64,000 nucleotides of DNA, from the NCBI GenBank assembly GCA_041664625.1, contig JBAYKK010000003.1, positions 4,331 to 68,330 on the forward strand, written 5' to 3'. The DNA comes from Minisyncoccota bacterium (GTDB lineage: Bacteria; Patescibacteriota; Minisyncoccia; Phycocordibacterales; WO2-35-19). Below the pieces are notes generated by a model. The model was given only the letters and a program-made list of their open reading frames with translations. It ran no database searches and had not been told where the DNA came from. Both the position numbers and the translations under genes were made by a program. Of this stretch, positions 10,017 through 64,000 are shown piece after piece (the stretch's first letter is position 1; each line of letters begins with the position of its first letter).

Positions 10017-10607
10017 ATGAAATTATTGATTTTGTTTTCTCTCTATCTTTCTTCGGTCTTTGCCCAAGAAGGGGTGAAGCTGAAGGACGTCACCATGTCT
10101 TACGGGGATTCGGCGTTTACGTCAGGGCTCAATATCGCCACGACGTTCTCACTGAAACCAAATCGGGATCTGGAGCTGGTCGGCAACAGTGAGCGGTTTT
10201 ACACTACTGTGAACTTCAAGACGGCTAGCAATAAGCTTTCGCTCGATGCGACCGCTGGAGCTTTCAAAAAGTTGCCGTGGGTAGGGCCACGAGTGGTCTA
10301 CACTCCGGTCAAGCAAGTGATGGCGATGTACTGGAGTGGGGTTTCGGCCGGACGGGTTGAGGCGATCAGGGCTGAGCCCAAATCGTTCTTTCAACAGCTC
10401 AGCTTTTATGTGTATCCGATTGAGGGGGTCTCTCTGGGGTACACAGCAATCAAAATGGATGTGTACAAAGCCACCATGTTGCCTGAGGTGGCTTACAAGT
10501 TCAAGCTGATGAAAGATCTCAAGATGGGCGTAAGCGCGACCTACGACACGGTCGCCAAGAAGCCGCTTTTTTGCGTCTTCTTGTCATACAGTCCTCCTCA
10601 AAAATAG
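10017..10607 (+). CDS. secreted beta-strand-rich protein with signal peptide (OMP-like), GC-rich, probable HGT
   Basis: MKLLILFSLYLSSVFAQE signal peptide; alternating hydrophobic pattern; GC ~53%; strong terminator downstream. Confidence 0.55.
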   Translation: MKLLILFSLYLSSVFAQEGVKLKDVTMSYGDSAFTSGLNIATTFSLKPNRDLELVGNSERFYTTVNFKTASNKLSLDATAGAFKKLPWVGPRVVYTPVKQVMAMYWSGVSAGRVEAIRAEPKSFFQQLSFYVYPIEGVSLGYTAIKMDVYKATMLPEVAYKFKLMKDLKMGVSATYDTVAKKPLFCVFLSYSPPQK

Positions 10608-17648: not shown

Positions 17649-18896
17649 ATGTTATTCCCTGAAATAAAAATTGAAAAAAATACAATTAATGGTGCTATTG
17701 TGTATAAACTTTATAAAAAAGATGCTCCTTTGGCCATAAGGTTTACTTTTTTTGCTGGTTCTCGTTTTGATGAAAAACCCGGAGTGGCTCATTGTCTAGA
17801 ACATTTATTTGTAGCTTCTACTTCTTTTTTTAAATCAAAAGATCAGATAGCTAAATATTTGGAACAATTTGGTGGAAATTTTTCAGCGACAACAGGTAAT
17901 GATGTTTTAAGAGTAAATATTGAAATTTCTGATAAAGAAGATATTGAAAAAGCTCTTTTGTTAATGAAAAGTTTTTTAGATAGAAGAATATTTGATAATA
18001 ATGTTTTTGAAAATGAAAGGAAATCTATTTTGTCAGAATTTCTAGAAAAGAAAAGTAATCCGTCTAAATTTGTTTGGGAATTACGAAGGAAAAATTCTTT
18101 TGCAGGAACACCTCTAGAGAACTCTATAATTGGTACAGAACAGGAGGTATTAAATATAACTGTTGACGATGTGATTAAACATCATGATAAAAATATAACA
18201 TCAGGAAAACTAAACATAGTAATTGCTGGAGATTTTGAAGAAAATATTGTTGATAACATAAAACAAAATTTACCTGAAATAAAAATTGAAAAATACTTAG
18301 GTCTGGATAATATTTTTTTTCCAAAAATGTTGCCAAATAAAAATCGCAATAAAATAATTGAAAAAAATATAGCCGACGGAAAACAGGCGTACACCGTTTG
18401 TAGTTTGGCTATATTTGACAAATTATCTGTAAAAGAAAAAATAGCTTTAAAGATATTCAATAATATATTTGGAGTGGGTCGCGGTTCTGTTTTGTTATCA
18501 AACCTTAGATACAAAGAGTCTTTTGTATATTCAGCTTTTTCATCGTTAAATGGGGGCTATGATTGGAGTATTTTTGATATTTATTTTTCTTCAAATTATC
18601 AAGACATTAATAAGTGTATTGAGATAATAAAGCAACAAGTAATAGAAATAAAAAATGGTAAAATCAGTAAAGAAGAATTTGAAAATGAAAAAAATAGAAT
18701 TATTAAAAATTTAAAAAGAGAATTGCAGACAACAAATGATCTGGTCAATTTTTGTGAACAGCTTTTTATATTTGAAGAAAATCTTAGTCTTAAAATGTAT
18801 AAAGACGCATTCGATGATTTAAAATTGGAGGATTTCTTGATTGTTATTAATAAATTTGTTAAAGAAGATCAATTTAACGTTGCAATTTGTAGATAA
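17649..18896 (+). CDS. M16 family zinc metallopeptidase (pitrilysin/insulinase-like)
   Basis: 415 aa; inverted zincin HxxEH motif (AHCLEHLF); M16 N/C domain lengths. Confidence 0.7.
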   Translation: MLFPEIKIEKNTINGAIVYKLYKKDAPLAIRFTFFAGSRFDEKPGVAHCLEHLFVASTSFFKSKDQIAKYLEQFGGNFSATTGNDVLRVNIEISDKEDIEKALLLMKSFLDRRIFDNNVFENERKSILSEFLEKKSNPSKFVWELRRKNSFAGTPLENSIIGTEQEVLNITVDDVIKHHDKNITSGKLNIVIAGDFEENIVDNIKQNLPEIKIEKYLGLDNIFFPKMLPNKNRNKIIEKNIADGKQAYTVCSLAIFDKLSVKEKIALKIFNNIFGVGRGSVLLSNLRYKESFVYSAFSSLNGGYDWSIFDIYFSSNYQDINKCIEIIKQQVIEIKNGKISKEEFENEKNRIIKNLKRELQTTNDLVNFCEQLFIFEENLSLKMYKDAFDDLKLEDFLIVINKFVKEDQFNVAICR

Positions 18897-19172: not shown

Positions 19173-19667
19173 CTATGTATACTCTGGTTTTATTTTGTGG
19201 TTTTTGAGGTATAAGGTCCTAAAGTAAGTTGGTATGTATGGAAAATAACGAGAAAATTGTTTAGTTGGCAAAAATTGAATAGATTTGATTATTTTTCGGC
19301 AATTTTTTTCTCCACAAGCGCATTTCATGGACCATAATTGATCAGCTTCTATTATAGAATAATCAGTGGTTGTCTCGTCACCTTTTTTGATATCTTTTAG
19401 AGCAACAACTTCGACTTTTCCTTTTATACCGCAATTTGGATTGCAAGAATGATTTAAATATTTATAGGGTGGGATAGGGTCAACCCAATTATTCATCTTG
19501 AAACCAACCCAGTCAGGATGTGATAGTGCGTCTTTTTTGCCGTTGTTTACCTTAAACATTCTAGGGCCTTTTATTATAAAAACAATCTCTCCTTTCGCTA
19601 TATCTCTAGTTGCAAATATTCCTTTGCCATGAATTCCGCTTTTACTAACCGTTACTTTAGTCGACAT
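19173..19667 (-). CDS. SET-domain protein lysine methyltransferase
   Basis: 164 aa; GKGIFATRDIAKGEIV, NHSCNPN, TTTDYS, post-SET CACGEKNCR. Confidence 0.75.
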   Translation of the reverse strand: MSTKVTVSKSGIHGKGIFATRDIAKGEIVFIIKGPRMFKVNNGKKDALSHPDWVGFKMNNWVDPIPPYKYLNHSCNPNCGIKGKVEVVALKDIKKGDETTTDYSIIEADQLWSMKCACGEKNCRKIIKSIQFLPTKQFSRYFPYIPTYFRTLYLKNHKIKPEYT

Positions 19668-19671
19668 AAAT

Positions 19672-20250
19672 TTATTTTTTTATATTAATTTTTCTAAATA
19701 AAAGTCCTGTTATTACCCCGTCTATTAGGAATGTGTAGACTGGGTATATTATAACACCAAATATAATCTTGTCAATCGCAAACAAATTAAACAAATTACC
19801 GGTCTGGGTGAGTGACCAAGCGAAACGGTCCTCTTCTTCTGGGGTGGTCCATGATTTTTTTATTGTAGGTATGGCCGCAAAAAAATCTATAGCCAAATTA
19901 GCGACCAGAGCTACCACTGGTGAGCCAAAAACCCACCAAAGAACCAGGCTGAATAAAGCTCCTACGAAGGCAATGATGTCTATTTTTTCAGTTCCACCCA
20001 CGCCGTATTTTATGGCAAGCAAGGCGATGATCGTAGGTGCGATCGCTTCACTAACCGCTACCCAAATAGTATCTTCGGCACCGGAAGCTCGGTAGCTTAT
20101 AGCCAAGATGATGCCGATTATGGCCCAAATGAACCAAGTGGCTCGGCTGGGTTTGGTTTTGCCTTTGAGTATTGCGACTATATAAAATAAATAAGCAGAG
20201 AAAGAAAGTATCCCGGCCATTATTCCAAAAATTCCAGTAAAGCCAAACAT
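19672..20250 (-). CDS. 6-TM integral membrane protein (hypothetical), likely co-transcribed with the SET gene
   Basis: 192 aa, six hydrophobic helices, 4-nt gap to SET gene start. Confidence 0.5.
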   Translation of the reverse strand: MFGFTGIFGIMAGILSFSAYLFYIVAILKGKTKPSRATWFIWAIIGIILAISYRASGAEDTIWVAVSEAIAPTIIALLAIKYGVGGTEKIDIIAFVGALFSLVLWWVFGSPVVALVANLAIDFFAAIPTIKKSWTTPEEEDRFAWSLTQTGNLFNLFAIDKIIFGVIIYPVYTFLIDGVITGLLFRKINIKK

Positions 20251-33509: not shown

Positions 33510-33603
33510 TCATCCATTTTACAACAAAGAAGGTTGGTTTCCAATTTGATTTTAGGGGAATTTAAGGTTATATTTGTGGAACTATTACTTTAAATTTATA
33601 AAA

Positions 33604-34872
33604 ATGAATTACAAAAAAAAGGTCTTAAAAAATGGTTTGCGGGTTATAGCTGTGCCGATCAAAGGCTCACCTTCAGTCACAGTGATGAGTTTGGTAGAAG
33701 CTGGCTCAAAATATGAAAACAAACAAAACAATGGTATCTCCCATTTTTTGGAGCATATGTGTTTTAAGGGTACAAACAAAAGACTTAAGGCTATAGATAT
33801 TTCTAGAGAGTTTGATGCTATGGGTGCTCAAAACAACGCTTTCACTTCTGAGGAAGTGACGGGTTATTGGGGCAAAGCTTCCAATAAACACACTGATAAA
33901 CTTTTGGACATTATTGCTGATATGTATTTGAACCCAACTTTGCCGGCTGATGATTTGGAAATTGAAAAAGGCGTGATCATAGAAGAAATAAATATGTATG
34001 AAGATTTGCCTCAAAGATTGGTGCAAGAAGTTTTTAATGGGCTCTTATACGGTGATCAGCCAGCTGGTTGGTCTGTGGCCGGCACCAAAGAAAATGTGCG
34101 CGGTTTTAAACGTGAGGATTTTGTAAATTATAGAAAACAAAATTACGTAGCTTCGGCCACTACTATCGTCATAGCTGGAGACGTTGAAGCTTCTGATATT
34201 TTCAAAAAAGTAGCAAAAGCTTTTGCTGGTATACCGACTACCAAAAAATTGGCTAAGAAAAAAGTGATAGAAAAGCAAAGTGAACCGCAAGTTAAATTGA
34301 AATTTAAAGAAACCGATCAAACTCATTTGGTTATTGGGGTGAGAAGTTTTGATTTGTATGACAAAAGAGCACCAGCTTTGAGATTGCTTTCAGTGGTGCT
34401 TGGTAATGGCATGAGTTCTCGACTTTTCCAAAAAATGAGAGAGGAACTTGGTATTTGTTATTACGTGAGATGTTCGGCTGATAGTCTGACTGATCATGGA
34501 GTGTTTGCAATCTCAGCCGGAGTTGATTCAAATAGAGTAGAGCAAGGTATCAAAGGTATTTTGGAAGAGCTTATAAGAATCAGAGATGAAAAAATACCAG
34601 AAGCAGAGTTGCGCAAAGCCAAAGATTATTTGATTGGTAATATGTATTTGGGTTTGGAGTCCTCCGATGCGCAGGCCAACTTTTTTGGTTTTCAAGAAAT
34701 AATGAAAGAAAAAATAAAAACTCCTAAAGAAATAGAAAAAGAAATTGAAAAAATCACGGCTTCTGATATTGCCAAATTAGCCAAACAAATTATCGTAAAC
34801 AAAAATCTCAATATGGCGATCGTCGGCAAGTATCAAGACGATTCTCGTTTCAAAAATATCTTGAAGGTTTAA
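33604..34872 (+). CDS. M16 family zinc metallopeptidase
   Basis: HFLEHMCFKGT (HxxEH) plus downstream Glu; ~420 aa two-domain M16. Confidence 0.7.
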   Translation: MNYKKKVLKNGLRVIAVPIKGSPSVTVMSLVEAGSKYENKQNNGISHFLEHMCFKGTNKRLKAIDISREFDAMGAQNNAFTSEEVTGYWGKASNKHTDKLLDIIADMYLNPTLPADDLEIEKGVIIEEINMYEDLPQRLVQEVFNGLLYGDQPAGWSVAGTKENVRGFKREDFVNYRKQNYVASATTIVIAGDVEASDIFKKVAKAFAGIPTTKKLAKKKVIEKQSEPQVKLKFKETDQTHLVIGVRSFDLYDKRAPALRLLSVVLGNGMSSRLFQKMREELGICYYVRCSADSLTDHGVFAISAGVDSNRVEQGIKGILEELIRIRDEKIPEAELRKAKDYLIGNMYLGLESSDAQANFFGFQEIMKEKIKTPKEIEKEIEKITASDIAKLAKQIIVNKNLNMAIVGKYQDDSRFKNILKV

Positions 34873-41180: not shown

Positions 41181-42269
41181 TTAAGCGGCTGTGTATAGTC
41201 CTTGTTTGTTTTTCTTGAAGAACTTTGGATTTTGTAAGTTGACCATCACGGTGTTGGCTTTGACGTAACGTTCTTTCATCACTTTTTCTAAAACTTGTTC
41301 TTTGGAAAGTGGGCCATCTTTTTTGATAATTTCAGCGATCACATCTCGGACTACGCCAGTTGAATAACCCCATTCTTTCAAAGCATAAAGACCACGACCA
41401 ACCAAAACGAAACGAGGGTCTTTGATGAGTTCGTTGTGAGTGGTAGCGACATGGGCTTTTTTCTTGAAAACTTCACCTATGAGTTTGGCTACTTCTCTGA
41501 AGTGGATTGGTGAACCATGTTTGCGTAAAATCAAATATGCGTAATCACGAACTCCTTTGGTCTTGATATTTGAAGATTTAGATTTGCCCCATTCGCCCAA
41601 TGGATTTTTGGAAATATTTTTGGAAATAGAGAGCCAACGAGTGAGTATCTCATCTTGTTTGTATTCGTCGGAAACATTTTTTAAATGTTCCAAAAAGGAA
41701 TTAACAATTTCAGCTTCTGGGATTATTTCATCATCGCCCAAACCGATATAGAGTTTGCGTAAAGCCTCGTGGATTTTTTCGGCTAAGCTGCCGTCTACGT
41801 GCCAACGATGTTTGAATTCTATGTCTTCTTTGATTTTGCTGAAATCATCACCAACTACCAAAAGGAAATGGATGTATTTTTTGGTGACTGTGTCTTTACC
41901 CAAATGATTTAGCAAATCATCTTCAGAAACTACACCACCCATTTGGTTCATTATATTTTTTAATTCATCAAAAACGGCTCGCTCTTTTTCATAAGTATCA
42001 GCTTTCCTGATGTGGTTTATGGCGTAATTTTCAATCTGACGGACTCTCTCTCTGGTGATACCGTATTTTTTGCCTATTGCTTCAAGAGTCATTTCTTCGC
42101 CATTTTGATTCAAGCCAAAACGGCCCACGATCACATCTTGAGCTCGGTCTGGGAGAGAACCAAAAAGTCTCTTAACCACTTGCTTGGGGTTAAAAGAAAG
42201 GACGAATATTTTGTTTTTTGAAGCTTCTTTTATCATATAATTTATTAAATTAATTATACCCGCCCGCAA
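41181..42269 (-). CDS. sigma-70 region-4-like HTH protein with a long C-terminal extension (putative transcription factor)
   Basis: N-terminal LPDRAQDVIVGRFGL...EEMTLEAIGKKYGITRERVRQIENYAINHIRK matches sigma70 region 4, here placed at the N-terminus. Confidence 0.5.
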   Translation of the reverse strand: MRAGIINLINYMIKEASKNKIFVLSFNPKQVVKRLFGSLPDRAQDVIVGRFGLNQNGEEMTLEAIGKKYGITRERVRQIENYAINHIRKADTYEKERAVFDELKNIMNQMGGVVSEDDLLNHLGKDTVTKKYIHFLLVVGDDFSKIKEDIEFKHRWHVDGSLAEKIHEALRKLYIGLGDDEIIPEAEIVNSFLEHLKNVSDEYKQDEILTRWLSISKNISKNPLGEWGKSKSSNIKTKGVRDYAYLILRKHGSPIHFREVAKLIGEVFKKKAHVATTHNELIKDPRFVLVGRGLYALKEWGYSTGVVRDVIAEIIKKDGPLSKEQVLEKVMKERYVKANTVMVNLQNPKFFKKNKQGLYTAA

Positions 42270-54221: not shown

Positions 54222-54277
54222 ATAGTTTATAATAACTCACCCTATCATCTCTTACAACCAGAGCGGGAAAAATGAAA

Positions 54278-54301
54278 GGGCCGTCGCGTTAGCGACGGCC
54301 C
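54278..54301 (-). terminator. perfect 10-bp GC hairpin terminator
   Basis: gggccgtcgc-gtta-gcgacggccc followed on the minus strand by TTTCATTTTT. Confidence 0.65.
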
Positions 54302-54512
54302 ACGGATTATGCCCTTGTATCTACTTGTTTTCCTCTCCTTTTTTGGGAGGCGAAGTTTTTTGCACGTCATCATCCGACGATGCCTGGGTTTTCGGAAATG
54401 CACTCGGCAAGTCCTGGACCCTGGTGGTCTTAATGGGGGTCGTTCTTGCCCCCCAAAACACACTGAAACTCGGCGGACTTTGCAATGAGCCTTTCATCTT
54501 CTCTTTTCCTTT

Positions 54513-54980
54513 CTAGTGAACACTCGAGGTGGAAACCTCGAAAAATTCGAGCTTGCCAGTCTTTGGCCGGTTCTTGATGACGATCACCTTCTCGCTCACG
54601 ATCGGGCAATAGAAGAAGATCTTGAAGCTCAACCCCAAGTTTGGGAAGCGCTTCCTCAGGGCGTTGTGAATCGTATTATTGACCGATTCCTGCTCGCCTC
54701 TGTTCGTTATGCCCGGACAGAACAAGATTAGGGGCTGACCCTTCTTGTTCTCGGACAAGAACATCCGGAAGATGTCTCCCATACTGATCTCCCTCCGGTG
54801 GTTGACCACCTTCGGGACGACGGCGACCACCTCCGGCTTGAACGCCGGCAACTTGGTGGACGACCTCAAGGTCGCTCTTGAAATACCCGCTGTAAAAGTT
54901 GACACTACTCTTACCTCTTGTTTGGAATAGAACAGAACCTGAAATAAAATATTACACTCATTAAAATAGAAGTCAAGCAA
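54513..54980 (-). CDS. hypothetical protein in GC-rich island (probable horizontally acquired gene or gene remnant)
   Basis: ~52-55% GC; strong G/C bias at codon third positions over ~54513-54900 in this frame; no domain recognised; AT-rich N-terminal part may not belong. Confidence 0.35.
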   Translation of the reverse strand: MLDFYFNECNILFQVLFYSKQEVRVVSTFTAGISRATLRSSTKLPAFKPEVVAVVPKVVNHRREISMGDIFRMFLSENKKGQPLILFCPGITNRGEQESVNNTIHNALRKRFPNLGLSFKIFFYCPIVSEKVIVIKNRPKTGKLEFFEVSTSSVH

Positions 54981-57673: not shown

Positions 57674-58425
57674 ATAAAAAAATAATGCTAGTGTCTGGGA
57701 TTTTAGTGGTTATTTTGGGTGTTTTTTTGGTTGTAAAAAATGTTTCTTTGGCACCAACGCCCGAAGAAAATCAAAGCAATTCTCAATCTTCCTCCACTGA
57801 AAATTCATTGGGTAAAATAAAAATTGATCCAGTCGTGAATACGCAGACTTTGCCATTTTCTGATAGTCCCAAAGATGTTGCTTGGGCGGTTTTTTCAAAA
57901 TATCTGGCTTTCAATAAAGAGCAAAATTTGGCAGGAGTCAAAAGTGTAGTTTATAAAATCAATCCGGTTTGCGCTGACGAGATCACAAGTGTTGATTGCA
58001 AAGCGCGGATGGATTCGGCCTATTCTTATGGTAGTGCTTTAAAAAAAGCAGATTTTGTAAATATTTGGAGTGACGAAAAGCAAATGATTTTGACTACTGA
58101 TTTTTGGTTAGAATCATCCAAAGAAATGGATCAGTACGGCCGGTTCAGAGGCATTATATTTTTTGTGAAAGGCGAGGCAGGTTGGAAACTTTTGAGTTTT
58201 TCTCCAACTAAAGGTGGTGCTACCAATAAAGGGTTGGCCAGTCAAGAAGAAATCGATACTCGAATCATCCGCTACACTGAAGACCAAGACTTTGATGGGT
58301 TAGCTGATTATGAAGAAGAGTGTTTGAACAAGCCCAACGATAATACTTGTATCAAAACCTCTCCCAAACTCCGCGACACCAATGGCAATGGCCTCTGGGA
58401 TGGTGTAGAAGCTTTGATGAAATAA
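57670..58425 (+). CDS. membrane-anchored extracytoplasmic hypothetical protein with C-terminal Ca-binding-like DxDGDG motif
   Basis: N-terminal TM; DTNGNGLWDG near C-terminus; ATGA overlap with pyrD. Confidence 0.45.
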   Translation: MNKKIMLVSGILVVILGVFLVVKNVSLAPTPEENQSNSQSSSTENSLGKIKIDPVVNTQTLPFSDSPKDVAWAVFSKYLAFNKEQNLAGVKSVVYKINPVCADEITSVDCKARMDSAYSYGSALKKADFVNIWSDEKQMILTTDFWLESSKEMDQYGRFRGIIFFVKGEAGWKLLSFSPTKGGATNKGLASQEEIDTRIIRYTEDQDFDGLADYEEECLNKPNDNTCIKTSPKLRDTNGNGLWDGVEALMK

Positions 58426-58433
58426 CGTTTTGC

Positions 58434-58463
58434 TTGACAAAGTAGGGTGTTTGGGTGTATAAT
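58434..58463 (+). promoter_or_regulatory. consensus sigma70 promoter TTGACA-18-TATAAT
   Basis: Both hexamers perfect; 32 nt upstream of the 58496 ATG. Confidence 0.5.
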
Positions 58464-58495
58464 GTACACAGGAAATATACAAAGGAGTTTTTACA

Positions 58496-58630
58496 ATGTG
58501 GCAGAGACTTGGAAACTACGAGTATGAATGCGAAGGACACACCTACACCGGTTGGTGCAGGTGTGTCAATGGCCAGATGGCCAATGGTCACTGGCCCGAA
58601 TTCAACTACCGCACGGGTGAGCAAAGATAA
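58496..58630 (+). CDS. small Cys/Trp/Tyr-rich peptide (44 aa) MWQRLGNYEYECEGHTYTGWCRCVNGQMANGHWPEFNYRTGEQR
   Basis: Below track cutoff; RBS aaaggag 8 nt before ATG; consensus promoter; GC ~55%. Confidence 0.4.
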   Translation: MWQRLGNYEYECEGHTYTGWCRCVNGQMANGHWPEFNYRTGEQR

Positions 58631-58723
58631 TCACTTTCCGCCACCCGGATAGCCGTCGCTCCTCCAACTACGCCGCAAGGCTTCGCTGGGCGAGCTGGGC
58701 GGCTTTCTTTTTGTAAAAAAATC

Positions 58724-58750
58724 ACAATTACAATGGCCGTCATTGTAATT
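58724..58750 (-). terminator. typA terminator
   Basis: caattacaatg-gccgt-cattgtaattt followed on the minus strand by a T7 run. Confidence 0.6.
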
Positions 58751-58775
58751 TTAAGTGTGGTGTAATTTGAAGTAT

Positions 58776-60554
58776 TTATTTCTTCCCTGCTTTGGAGCGT
58801 TCGAGTTCGGTTAGGAGTTTTTTGCGCAAACGAGCAGATTTGGGAGTGATTTCTAGATATTCATCTTCGGCCATTATTTCCAAACCACTTTCAATGCTGA
58901 TAGGAGTAGGTGGTGCCAAATATATTTTGTCATCTGAGCCGGAAGCTCGCATGTTGGTCAATTGTTTGCCTTTGGTTGGGTTCACGGTCATATCATCCCC
59001 TTTTGATGTGTTGCCGATAACCATACCCTCATAAACTTCGATAGCGGGGCCGATATAAAGTGTGCCTCGAGTTTGTAAGTTGTCCAAAGAGAAAGCCAGA
59101 ACTTTGCCAGATGCCATAGCGATCATTGAACCAGTTGGTTTCTTTTGGATTTCACCGGCGTAAGGTTTGAAACCGATCACTCGACTGGCAAAAACTCCTT
59201 CACCTTTGGTGTCAACAACGAATTGATTGCGGTAACCCAAAAGTCCACGAGTTGGTCCTTCAAAAATAAATCGTAAGTGATTGTTGTGAGATTTGGTGCT
59301 AATCATTTGAGCTCCTCTTTTACCCAATTTTTCGATGACTACTCCTTGCATTTCAGATGGCACGTCGATAGTGATTTCTTCAAAAGGTTCACTCTTTTTA
59401 CCGTCTATTTCTTTTATGATGACTTGAGGTTGTGACACCTGCATTTCAAAACCTTCTCTTCTCATATTTTCCAAAAGGATAGCGATATGCAATTCTCCTC
59501 GGCCAAAAACTTTCATGTTGTCGCCGTCAAAATCTACTTTGAGTCCGACGTTCACTTCCAATTCTTTGACCAATCGGTCTCTGATTTGTCGGCCAGTGAC
59601 AAATTTACCTTCACGGCCAGCAAATGGTGAATTGTTAACCAAAAAATCCAAAGCGATAGTCGGTTCATCTACTTCGATGATAGGCAAACTCTCGGTGTCT
59701 TTGTCATCCGTTATGGTGTCTCCAATATAAATATTTGGTAAGCCGGCGATCATCACGATGTCTCCAGCTTGTGCCTCAGCTATTTCTTTGCGAGCGATAC
59801 CTTCGAAGGTGAATATTTTGGTGATCTTGCCTTCTTCGATACCACCTCCGGTTTTTTTGACGTAAACTTTTTGTCCATCTTTGAGACTGCCTTCATAAAC
59901 CCGAGCGATCGCCATACGACCCAGAAAGTTGTCGTAAGCCAAATTGAAAGGCTGAGCTTTTAGAGGTAATTCGATATTTTGTTTGGCTGGCGATACTTTT
60001 TCCAAAATAGTATCAAGTAGTGGAGTGAGATCAGTGCTTTCATCGCCCAAATTTTTCATCGCCACACCATTTTTGGCGATAGCATAAACGGTGGTGAAAT
60101 CGAGCTGTTCTTCGGTGGCGCCAAGATCAAAAAATAATTCAAAAATTTCATCGTGAGCTTTTTTGGGATCAGCCGCTTTTTTGTCTATTTTATTTAAAAC
60201 TACGATTGGTTTGTGGCCGATCTCCAAAGATTTTTTCAAAACGAAACGAGTTTGAGGCATCGGACCTTCTTGAGCGTCAACTACCAAAAGTACCGAATCA
60301 ATAGAACGCAAAATACGTTCTACTTCTGAACCGAAATCGGCGTGCCCTGGGGTGTCTACGATATTGATTTTGGTGTCTTTGTATAAAACACTCGCATTTT
60401 TGGAATAAATAGTAATACCACGCTCTTTTTCGAGCGCGTTAGAATCCATGGAGACTCCTTCTTTTTCAAAACCGGTTTGACGCAAAATAGCGTCTGTCAG
60501 CGCTGTTTTGCCATGGTCCACATGGGCTATGATTGCTATATTGCGTATTTCCAT
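58776..60554 (-). CDS. typA: translational GTPase TypA/BipA
   Basis: [14 protein letters not shown]1, DTPGHADF G3, EF-G-like domain order, 592 aa. Confidence 0.9.
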
Positions 60555-63155: not shown

Positions 63156-63308
63156 AAGCCTATAACTTTTGGTCTTTATATCCCGATTATATTAAGGGAG
63201 GGGCGACCAATGCGTCCCAAGTAGTGAATGTAAAACAAAAACTAGTGAGATCAGAGTTATAATATAAGTATATACCAAAACCAATATCTTGTCAAGAAAA
63301 AATATATA

Positions 63309-63331
63309 AAGAAAAAGCGGCCCCAATTGCA
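63309..63331 (-). terminator. terminator of the ABC transporter gene
   Basis: gcggcccca-attgca-tggggccgc; T-run on the minus strand. Confidence 0.6.
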
Positions 63332-63351
63332 TGGGGCCGCCCGGAATCGGA

Positions 63352-64000
63352 TTACACAAAGATCTGCTTGCGGGTCAGGCGCTGATAGATCTCGCAACTT
63401 GTCGCGAGTTCTTCGTGGGTGCCTTGACCCACGATCTTGCCCTTGTCGAAAACGATCACTTTGTCCACGTTTCGGATCGTGCTGAAACGATGGGCAATGA
63501 TGATGGTCGTCCGACCACGAGAGGCTCTCTCGATGGACTCTTGGATGAGACTCTCGTTCTCGGAGTCGAGGCTACTGGTCGCCTCGTCAAAGATCAGGAT
63601 GTCTGGTTCTTTGATAAGCGCTCGAGCGATACCGACTCGTTGCCGTTCGCCACCACTGAGCTTCACTCCCCGCTCGCCGATATGGGTGTCAAACCCCTTT
63701 TCCAGCCGACCAAAAAATCGGTCGATGCAGGACATCTCAGCGATTCTGTGAAGTTCCCTGTCGCTGATTTCGGTCGCTCGGCCATTGAGACCGTAAGTCA
63801 TGTTGTAGCGCAATGACTGATCAAAAAGCGCTACGTCTTGATCCACGATCCCGATCGATGATCGGAAATGCTTGAGATCAAGCAACCGCAGGTCATTGCC
63901 GTCTACGATGATTTGGCCAATCTCCGGATCTTGCGCCCGGATGATAGCTTTGACCAAAGTAGACTTACCGGCACCGGACTCGCCCACGAAGGCGACGGTC
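63352..64000 (-). CDS. ABC transporter ATP-binding domain (exporter type; N-terminal part beyond window end)
   Basis: Walker A GESGAGKST at the window edge, LSGGERQR signature, Walker B ILIFDEATS, H-loop; GC ~55% (foreign-looking). Confidence 0.8.
   Translation of the reverse strand, partial: TVAFVGESGAGKSTLVKAIIRAQDPEIGQIIVDGNDLRLLDLKHFRSSIGIVDQDVALFDQSLRYNMTYGLNGRATEISDRELHRIAEMSCIDRFFGRLEKGFDTHIGERGVKLSGGERQRVGIARALIKEPDILIFDEATSSLDSENESLIQESIERASRGRTTIIIAHRFSTIRNVDKVIVFDKGKIVGQGTHEELATSCEIYQRLTRKQIFV

What the first reader, a model, noticed from the sequence alone, without database searches (positions are those of the whole stretch)
58434..58630. 44-aa Cys/Trp/Tyr-rich peptide under a textbook sigma70 promoter
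TTGACA-18-TATAAT (both hexamers perfect) and the RBS aaaggag precede MWQRLGNYEYECEGHTYTGWCRCVNGQMANGHWPEFNYRTGEQR. It has 3 Cys, 3 Trp and 5 Tyr and is ~55% GC. It is too short for the ORF track. The aromatic/Cys-rich composition and strong expression signals resemble RiPP precursors or small toxins/bacteriocins, and two M16 peptidases are encoded in this window. It could also be a spurious ORF inside a GC-rich sRNA.
Basis: seen in the sequence. Interest (0 to 1): 0.55.

Follow-up and report, generated by a model that had tools for sequence, protein, structure and literature searches.

The report
Unannotated conserved 44-residue protein gene
The flagged short ORF is a real gene with its own promoter and terminator, encoding a folded 44-residue protein of a conserved but uncharacterised family found in ultra-small bacteria, an archaeon and large phages; it is not a modified-peptide precursor, toxin or non-coding RNA.

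Summary
A perfect TTGACA-18-TATAAT promoter, an AAAGGAG ribosome-binding site, a 44-codon ORF (58496-58630) and a hairpin plus U-tract terminator form a GC-rich island (56% against 38%) in a Patescibacteria (Paceibacteria-like) genome.

The ORF is protein-coding.
- Metagenomic homologues keep the frame, length and stop codon, and their differences fall mainly at third codon positions (dN/dS about 0.3 against the closest relative).
- More than 130 database proteins of about 45 aa share the pattern WQxxGxYEYE…YTGWxRCxGGRLADGRWPEWNxxTGExRY(S).
- AlphaFold2 with a 52-sequence alignment gives a four-stranded beta fold at pLDDT 96.7.

The family has no Pfam, NCBIfam, PHROG, PADLOC, PDB or literature match. 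Members occur in CPR bacteria, an archaeon and viral or phage-like contigs, in varying gene contexts.

In the window the roughly 350-nt stretch carrying the cassette lies between two convergent housekeeping genes. Those genes are only about 25-45 nt apart in related species, so the cassette looks like an acquired, moron-like unit.

The RiPP, bacteriocin and M16-peptidase idea is not supported: only one Cys is conserved, there is no leader/core split, no maturase lies nearby, and the M16 genes are 24-40 kb away.

Biochemical function is unknown. My best guess is a small binding module. Interest is moderate to low.

The parts
58434..58463 (+). Sigma-70-type promoter TTGACA-18 nt-TATAAT. The inferred transcription start is near 58470.
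   Evidence: It scores 12/12. Two perfect matches occur in the window against 0.08 expected. The -35 to -10 stretch, spacer included, is nearly identical in the orthologous locus L083, although synonymous sites between the two genomes are saturated.
58481..58487 (+). Shine-Dalgarno sequence AAAGGAG, 8 nt upstream of the ATG.
   Evidence: Read directly. Purine-rich GGAG-type sequences also precede the homologues in L083, L085, L094, L099 and L101.
58496..58630 (+). CDS of a 44-aa protein (the end coordinate includes the stop codon). It belongs to an uncharacterised family of about 45 aa with the pattern WQxxGxYEYE…YTGWxRC…GRLADGRWPEWN..TGE.RY.
   Evidence: The ORF is listed. The family HMM hits this frame at E = 1.4e-23 and nothing else in the window at a significant level. 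phmmer and profile searches are. Against L083, dN is 0.26 and dS is 0.83. AF2 pLDDT is 96.7.
58651..58712 (+). Intrinsic-terminator-like element: an imperfect GC-rich hairpin (58651-58704) plus the U-tract UUUCUUUUU.
   Evidence: Fold. Homologues in L083 and L085 carry different hairpins followed by a U-tract at the same position. The simple terminator scanner missed it because of internal loops.
58715..58749 (-). AT-rich hairpin (58727-58749) plus a T-run (58715-58721) on the minus strand. This is probably the terminator of the convergent typA gene and marks the right edge of the cassette.
   Evidence: Fold z-score is -2.8. The typA stop codon ends at 58776.

Best explanation
The region 58434-58712 is a self-contained, single-gene transcription unit: a consensus sigma-70 promoter, a 5'UTR of about 25 nt with a strong Shine-Dalgarno sequence, a 44-codon ORF and an intrinsic terminator.

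It encodes a cytoplasmic, compactly folded all-beta mini-protein. AlphaFold2 predicts a three-stranded meander plus a short fourth strand. I infer that the Trp/Pro-rich loop packs over one face of the sheet.

The protein belongs to a conserved but undescribed family of about 45 aa that is patchily distributed in CPR/Patescibacteria, at least one archaeon, and large phage or viral contigs.

In this lineage the cassette sits between the convergent genes for a 251-aa protein and TypA/BipA. These genes are nearly abutting in related species. The cassette therefore behaves like a phage 'moron': an acquired promoter-gene-terminator module with composition unlike its flanks.

Shown: the expression signals, coding constraint, family membership, confident fold, absence at the syntenic site in relatives, and the variable gene context.

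Inferred, at about 40% confidence: at 44 residues it has no obvious room for a catalytic site, so it most likely acts stoichiometrically as a binding module. By strand alternation, the conserved residues E9/E11/T18/W20/R22 would lie together on one face of the sheet, and that face would bind a protein segment or nucleic acid, much as WW or SH3-like mini-domains do. It would be an accessory, horizontally mobile gene rather than part of any pathway encoded nearby.
For: - Promoter, SD and ORF are present.
- The terminator folds as described.
- Homologues from a metagenome scan have the same length, no indels and the same stop position. Differences from L085 by codon position are 13/10/25.
- Window against L083: TypA dS is 1.5, yet the peptide has dN 0.26 and dS 0.83, and the promoter is conserved.
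- phmmer against 1.84 billion representative proteins finds about 35 full-length small homologues. Profile searches find 58 and then 137 proteins, all unnamed or 'hypothetical', including Berkelbacteria and Patescibacteria MAG entries.
- Invariant or near-invariant residues W2, G6, Y8, E9, T18, G19, W20, R22, C23, G26, G31, W33 and P34 span the whole length.
- AF2 gives pLDDT 96.7 and pTM 0.72.
- The cassette is absent where the p251 homologue and TypA are adjacent in L004 and L005. There is no family hit in any of the 80 TypA loci.
- GC3 is 0.64 against 0.36 +/- 0.05 for the genome; P = 0.0004 given the amino-acid composition.
- Contexts: the archaeal locus L093 carries RpoN and archaeal DnaG above the NCBIfam cut-offs. 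The phage-like locus L092 carries T4_Y16D and Phage_ProQ_C_like. IMG/VR contigs of 138 and 89 kb carry the gene.
- There is no recurrent neighbour across 13 loci.
Against: - There is no expression or proteomic evidence, and the biochemical function is entirely inferred.
- No significant structural neighbour exists. The best Foldseek E-value is about 2, to a primase Zn-ribbon and to WW, Tudor and SH3 domains. The 'binding module' idea therefore rests on size and residue pattern only.
- High GC3 is maintained in both the window and L083 despite saturated synonymous divergence. The CDS of the four closest members folds unusually stably (z = -3.8, -3.6, -3.0, -2.3). Simple horizontal transfer does not explain this, and it hints at an RNA-level constraint that I cannot account for.
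- Gain of the cassette, as opposed to loss in relatives, is inferred from only five related loci.
Confidence: 0.8

Rival explanations
1. RiPP precursor or bacteriocin-like peptide. A modified, secreted Cys/Trp/Tyr-rich peptide, possibly processed by the M16 peptidases encoded in the window.
For: It is small and rich in aromatic residues and Cys, with strong expression signals. Two M16 peptidase genes are present in the window.
Against: - The M16 genes are 24 and 40 kb away, are not adjacent to each other, and are absent from the neighbourhoods of all 12 homologous loci.
- No rSAM, YcaO, lanthipeptide, lasso or transporter gene lies next to any member.
- Only C23 is conserved; C12 and C21 vary.
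- Conservation is uniform, with no leader/core split, no signal peptide and no double-glycine leader.
- The predicted fold is compact at pLDDT 96.7 rather than a disordered substrate.
- No NCBIfam or Pfam precursor model matches, even at E <= 10.
- The family also occurs inside phage gene arrays and in an archaeon.
Confidence: 0.03
2. A GC-rich structured small RNA, with the ORF either spurious or secondary (a dual-function RNA).
For: - It is a GC island in an AT-rich genome with its own promoter and terminator.
- The transcript folds with z = -3.9.
- The CDS of the window, L083, L091 and L099 folds with z between -3.8 and -2.3.
- GC3 stays high in two lineages despite dS above 0.8.
Against: - No Rfam hit at gathering threshold or at E <= 10, and no tmRNA or tRNA.
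- The frame, length and stop codon are conserved across homologues while their nucleotide sequences have diverged widely.
- More distant homologues have z near 0.
- The RNAalifold covariation term is +0.14, so there is no support from compensatory changes, and hairpin registers differ between relatives.
- The 3'UTR hairpins are not alignable.
- A purely non-coding reading is excluded. A lineage-specific extra RNA role is not excluded.
Confidence: 0.05
3. A small metal-binding (Cys/His) protein. In the window sequence, C12-x2-H15-x5-C21-x-C23-x8-H32 would form a zinc-knuckle-like site.
For: - The window, L083, L091 and L099 all carry Cys or His at several of positions 12, 15, 21, 23 and 32.
- The best, though non-significant, Foldseek hits include primase CHC2 zinc-binding domains.
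Against: Across the family only C23 is conserved. Position 21 is mostly Tyr and position 32 mostly Arg. C21 does not co-vary with H32. The fold is predicted with high confidence without a metal.
Confidence: 0.07
4. Type I toxin or small membrane protein.
For: Its size, stand-alone arrangement and strong promoter.
Against: The sequence has no hydrophobic stretch. It carries 5 Glu and 4 Arg, is rich in polar residues, and is predicted all-beta and soluble. No antisense RNA signal was seen, and there is no PADLOC match.
Confidence: 0.01

Closest known systems
Phage 'morons' (independent promoter-gene-terminator cassettes inserted between conserved genes, as described for lambdoid phages; recalled from my own knowledge)
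   Same: It has its own consensus promoter and its own terminator. It lies between two genes that are adjacent in relatives. Its base composition is unlike the flanks. Homologues are present in phage or viral contigs.
   Different: Here the cassette sits in a cellular chromosome between housekeeping genes (pyrD and the 251-aa gene on one side, typA on the other), not in a prophage. No integration scars or repeats were found.
WW domain (eukaryotic three-stranded proline-peptide-binding mini-domain of about 35-40 aa)
   Same: Similar size and a three-stranded antiparallel meander. A Trp sits at the start of strand 1, aromatic residues in strand 2, T-x-W in strand 3, and a later W-P. Weak Foldseek alignments give rmsd 2.3-2.9 A over 26-31 columns.
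   Different: The E-values of 7-9 are not significant. No Pfam WW match was found. This protein has an extra loop of about 12 residues and a fourth strand. Homology is not supported and the ligand is unknown.
Bacterial SH3 (SH3b), Tudor-like small beta-barrels and the CHC2 primase zinc ribbon
   Same: All are small all-beta folds. A faint sequence match links an SH3b segment of dipeptidyl-peptidase VI (GWYEI…YTGWV) to the family profile at E about 1. The top Foldseek hit is 1d0q, with a query-normalised TM-score of 0.54.
   Different: All matches are at chance level. The family has no conserved metal ligands and too few strands for a barrel.
RiPP precursor peptides (for example PqqA, lasso peptides or rSAM-modified peptides)
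   Same: Similar length, richness in aromatic residues and Cys, and a stand-alone short ORF.
   Different: There is no maturase context, no leader/core architecture, a folded domain is predicted, and the Cys residues are not conserved.

Membership tests
Uncharacterised ~45-aa 'WQxxGxYEYE…YTGWxRC…GRLADGRWPEWN..TGE.RY' family (database 'hypothetical proteins') | Full-length match to the family profile, with the invariant residues W2, G19, G26 and P34 | tested here: met
   HMM E = 1.4e-23 for the window ORF. Identity to members is 41-68% over the full length.
RiPP precursor | Gene neighbourhood contains a cognate modifying enzyme, protease or exporter | tested here: not met
   The window neighbours are pyrD, a 251-aa gene with no Pfam match, typA and a Gmad2-domain protein. 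In 12 homologous loci no maturase or transporter recurs.
RiPP precursor | Two-part leader/core conservation, or a match to a known precursor model | tested here: not met
   Conserved positions are spread over residues 2-44. NCBIfam and Pfam give no hit at E <= 10.
M16-peptidase-associated peptide system | M16 peptidase genes adjacent to, or in an operon with, the peptide gene | tested here: not met
   The M16 genes are at 17649-18896 and 33574-34872, which is 24-40 kb away, and they are not paired. None lies near any homologue.
Structured non-coding RNA | Match to an Rfam family, or a conserved secondary structure supported by covariation | tested here: not met
   No Rfam hit. The RNAalifold covariation term is +0.14. 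Fold z-scores are near 0 in distant homologues.
Structured non-coding RNA | Relatives conserve the nucleotides but not the reading frame | tested here: not met
   The opposite is seen: the frame, length and stop are kept while third positions diverge.
Phage moron-like cassette | Own promoter and own terminator flanking a single gene | tested here: met
   These are predictions from sequence, not transcript mapping.
Phage moron-like cassette | Inserted between genes that are adjacent in related genomes, with base composition unlike the flanks | tested here: met
   In L004 and L005 the p251 homologue and TypA are about 25-45 nt apart. GC3 is 0.64 against 0.36 for the genome.
Phage moron-like cassette | Located within a phage or prophage genome | tested here: not met
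   The flanks are housekeeping genes. It therefore works like a moron but is not filed as one.
WW domain | Match to the WW profile and a significant fold match | tested here: not met
   No Pfam hit. Foldseek E-values are 7-9.
Type I toxin / small membrane protein | A hydrophobic transmembrane helix | tested here: not met
   The sequence is polar and charged throughout and is predicted all-beta.
Known anti-phage defence components | Match to a PADLOC model | tested here: not met
   0 of 52 members match meaningfully.

The most novel reading that the evidence does not exclude
The family is a previously undescribed mini-fold of about 45 aa that moves horizontally between CPR bacteria, DPANN-like archaea and their large phages. 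It acts as a stoichiometric modulator of a target common to both domains, such as a nucleic acid or a universally conserved machine. It would be a phage-derived accessory or takeover factor that has been domesticated in episymbiont genomes under a very strong promoter. In the window's subclade it might also carry an RNA-level function, which would explain the maintained high GC3 and the stable mRNA fold.
Probability: 0.2. Interest if true: 0.6.

Novelty: new member of a known kind. Interest (0 to 1): 0.35.

Why it matters
Small proteins are systematically missed in CPR and DPANN genomes, and this one is not on record as a called gene for this organism. The gene belongs to a conserved family that crosses domains and phages, is predicted with high confidence to fold, and matches no Pfam, NCBIfam, PHROG, PADLOC or PDB entry. 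It therefore adds a concrete and cheaply testable target, since a 44-mer can be made synthetically, to the poorly understood accessory gene pool of ultra-small symbionts. It also gives a reasoned negative result: an aromatic/Cys-rich short ORF with strong expression signals need not be a RiPP. As it stands it is a hypothetical small protein without a demonstrated function, so its immediate importance is modest.

Tried and rejected
- Rfam at gathering threshold on the whole window, and at E <= 10 on 58380-58790, found nothing relevant. ARAGORN found no tRNA or tmRNA.
- The word-indexed protein search with the single peptide found nothing. The exact-sequence look-up of the peptide and of TypA was not on record.
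- blastn and nhmmer of the element against 80 TypA-linked loci from GTDB species found no copy. A six-frame family HMM search of the same loci also found none.
- Pfam, NCBIfam, PHROGs and PADLOC on the peptide or the family gave no meaningful hits. A PDB sequence profile search gave E >= 0.85.
- tblastn against GenBank phages with the peptide and with a family consensus found no match.
- A literature motif search returned 0 papers.
- phmmer hits to long Listeria-Bacteroides-repeat (Flg_new) and other repeat proteins, with E down to 6e-16, were examined and rejected. They are summed local matches of repeats to window-specific residues (HT.TG.C..VNGQ..NG). The family profile shows no relation by hhalign, with probability 0.2%.
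- L088 from the metagenome scan is a chance match interrupted by a stop codon.
- A recurring-neighbour search across 13 loci found only lineage synteny. The dnaX/holB proximity seen in three CPR loci was judged post hoc and inconsistent.
- The lasso-peptide reading (Thr at -2, Gly1, acidic residue at core positions 7-9) was checked by eye and does not fit.
- The Cys/His metal-site idea was rejected at family level.

Full report
**1. Observation.**

- TTGACA (58434-58439), an 18-nt spacer and TATAAT (58458-58463) form a 12/12 promoter match.
- The exact pattern TTGACA-N16-18-TATAAT occurs only twice in the 64-kb window, against 0.08 expected from shuffles.
- AAAGGAG (58481-58487) lies 8 nt before the ATG at 58496.
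- The ORF 58496-58630 encodes the quoted 44 residues.

There are two small corrections. The peptide has 4 Tyr plus 1 Phe, not 5 Tyr. The CDS is 52% GC. The whole block 58496-58712 is 55.8% GC against a window mean of 38.4%, which puts it in the top 0.26% of 217-nt windows.

Downstream, an imperfect GC-rich hairpin (58651-58704) is followed by UUUCUUUUU. On the other strand, an AT-rich hairpin plus T-run (58715-58749) looks like the terminator of the convergent typA gene. Promoter, SD, ORF and terminator therefore form a complete single-gene unit of about 240 nt.

**2. Organism and locus.**

TypA relatives place the window in Patescibacteria, near Paceibacteria. The flanking genes are pyrD, a gene for a 251-aa protein with no Pfam match ('p251'), and on the other side typA, which converges on them.

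In two species-level relatives, L004 and L005 (TypA 80-82% identical), the p251 homologue and typA are convergent with only about 25-45 nt between them. The window has about 350 nt there.

No copy of the element or of the peptide family exists within the 80 TypA-linked loci that I fetched. A metagenomic contig, L083 (TypA 87% identical), has the same gene at the same place under a near-identical promoter. L083 also has an extra ORF of 169 aa with a weak Cas2-like hit. The p251/typA gap is therefore a variable spot. The cassette appears to have been gained in the window+L083 lineage, or less parsimoniously lost in the others.

**3. Coding or RNA?**

Rfam finds nothing, either at gathering threshold on the whole window or at E <= 10 locally. 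There is no tRNA or tmRNA.

The transcript does fold better than shuffled controls, with z = -3.9. But the homologues answer the question in favour of coding:
- The window, L083 and L085 (a 58%-GC bacterium) share an ORF of the same length, with no indels and the same stop position. Differences between the window and L085 by codon position are 13/10/25.
- Between the window and L083, TypA has dS = 1.5, which is saturated. The peptide gene has dN = 0.26 and dS = 0.83.
- RNAalifold on six homologous CDSs gives a covariation term of +0.14, so there is no support from compensatory changes. The hairpins differ in register between relatives, and the 3'UTR hairpins are not alignable.

**4. The family.**

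- phmmer of the 44-mer against 1.84 billion representative proteins finds about 35 small proteins (42-66 aa) aligned over the full length.
- Profile searches find 58 and then 137 proteins.
- All are unnamed or 'hypothetical protein', including entries from Candidatus Berkelbacteria and a Patescibacteria MAG. None has a Pfam domain.
- The consensus is MxxWQxxGxYEYExxxxGYTGWxRCxGGRLADGRWPxWNxxTGxxRY(S).
- W2, G19, G26 and P34 are invariant. G6, Y8, E9, T18, W20, R22, C23, G31 and W33 are at least 90% conserved.
- Of the window's three Cys, only C23 is a family feature.
- Pfam, NCBIfam, PHROGs, PADLOC, a PDB sequence profile, tblastn against GenBank phages and a literature motif search all came back empty.
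- The very significant phmmer hits to long repeat proteins, such as Flg_new, are artefacts of repeat summation on window-specific residues.

**5. Structure.**

AlphaFold2 with the 52-sequence alignment gives pLDDT 96.7 and pTM 0.72, with every residue above 90. The predicted strands are 2-5, 8-13, 16-23 and 35-37.

The protein is thus a confidently predicted, compact mini beta-domain with at most a WW-like topological resemblance. From strand alternation, E9/E11 (strand 2) and T18/W20/R22 (strand 3) would share one face, while Y8/Y10/Y17/C23 together with W33-P34 would form the core. This is inference only, because coordinates were not inspected.

**6. Distribution and context.**

- The family occurs in CPR-like bacterial loci: L091, L094 and L099, alongside the window and L083. 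Several of these are stand-alone with their own promoter and terminator. L094, for example, has TTGACT-17-TAATAT.
- L085 is a GC-rich bacterium in which the start codon overlaps the stop of a pentapeptide-repeat gene as ATGA.
- L093 is an archaeon, with RNA polymerase subunit N and archaeal DnaG above the NCBIfam cut-offs.
- L092 is a phage-like contig of 111 kb with T4_Y16D and Phage_ProQ_C_like. There are also two IMG/VR contigs of 138 and 89 kb.
- L100 carries a divergent tandem paralogue.
- An all-against-all comparison of neighbours across 13 loci finds no recurrent partner gene.

This pattern is patchy, crosses domains, includes phages and varies in context. It is what one expects of a mobile accessory gene and not of a pathway component.

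**7. Composition puzzle.**

The gene's GC3 is 0.64. The genome's is 0.36 +/- 0.05, and 0.43 +/- 0.07 is expected from this gene's amino acids under the genome's codon usage (P = 0.0004). L083, L091, L099 and L100 show the same excess over their AT-rich hosts.

This fits acquisition from a GC-richer source, since family members exist in 55-58% GC organisms. But the excess persists in the window and in L083 despite saturated synonymous divergence. The four closest CDSs also fold unusually stably (z = -3.8 to -2.3), whereas distant ones do not. The putatively highly expressed csp gene has GC3 of 0.29, so general translational selection does not explain it. I leave this unexplained. A lineage-specific RNA-level constraint, such as mRNA stability, remains possible.

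**8. Interpretation.**

My best explanation is a moron-like, independently transcribed gene for a folded 44-aa protein of an undescribed conserved family. It most likely acts by binding rather than by catalysis. Confidence in the coding, family and cassette parts is high. Confidence in the binding-module mechanism is about 40%.

The RiPP/bacteriocin/M16 reading is not supported:
- The M16 genes are at 17649-18896 and 33574-34872.
- No maturase lies near the gene or near any homologue.
- The Cys residues are not conserved.
- There is no leader/core split.
- The product is predicted to be folded.

The pure-sRNA reading is refuted. A zinc-site reading is unlikely at family level.

**9. Verdict.**

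This is a real small gene, not on record as called, and a new member of an uncharacterised 'hypothetical protein' family. It is useful as a small-protein annotation and as a candidate for structural and functional work. It has no demonstrated or strongly implied unusual mechanism. Interest is 0.35.

Noticed in passing
window 58457 (contig ends of L001 and L002): Two Logan contigs from different SRA runs carry a 100%-identical p251 gene, and both end exactly 32 nt after its stop codon, inside the promoter spacer. This suggests a branch in the assembly graph, possibly an allele or a presence/absence polymorphism of the cassette.
   Followed up: partly
window 19748-19775 (-): This is the only other perfect TTGACA-N16-TATAAT in the window. 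It lies about 80 nt upstream of a SET-domain protein gene (19173-19667).
   Followed up: partly
window 54235-54948; also 10039-10566 and 63300-63876: These are other GC-rich islands (52-57% GC) in the 38% GC window. The island at 54235-54948 holds only a TTG-start ORF of 155 aa with no Pfam match, and has no Rfam hit. It is unexplained.
   Followed up: partly
window 1-64000: There is no tRNA gene and no Rfam gathering-level hit anywhere in the 64 kb.
   Followed up: no
window 58496-58630; L083 2983-3123; L091 6061-6201; L099 4013-4159: The CDSs of the four closest family members fold much more stably than dinucleotide shuffles (z = -3.8 to -2.3). They also keep high GC3 in AT-rich genomes. More distant members do not. 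No covariation was found.
   Followed up: partly
L083 3282-3791 (-): An extra ORF of 169 aa with a marginal Cas2-like NCBIfam hit (25.7 bits against a cut-off of 24.5) lies between the small gene and typA in the closest relative.
   Followed up: no
L084-L087, about 85-160 nt downstream of the small gene: A tandem array of roughly ten 8-nt units (GGGAGTTA / GGGGGTTA) lies immediately after the small gene's terminator. The array length differs between contigs.
   Followed up: no
L100 3795-3977 (+): A divergent tandem paralogue of the family (HMM E = 8e-8) lies directly upstream of the family gene.
   Followed up: partly
L085 5010-5013: The small gene's ATG overlaps the TGA stop of an upstream pentapeptide-repeat protein gene as ATGA. 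This suggests translational coupling in that organism, unlike the stand-alone arrangement in the window.
   Followed up: partly
window 41181-42269 (-): An ORF combines sigma-70 region 4 with a HARE-HTH domain. This is an unusual architecture, seen during the Pfam survey.
   Followed up: no
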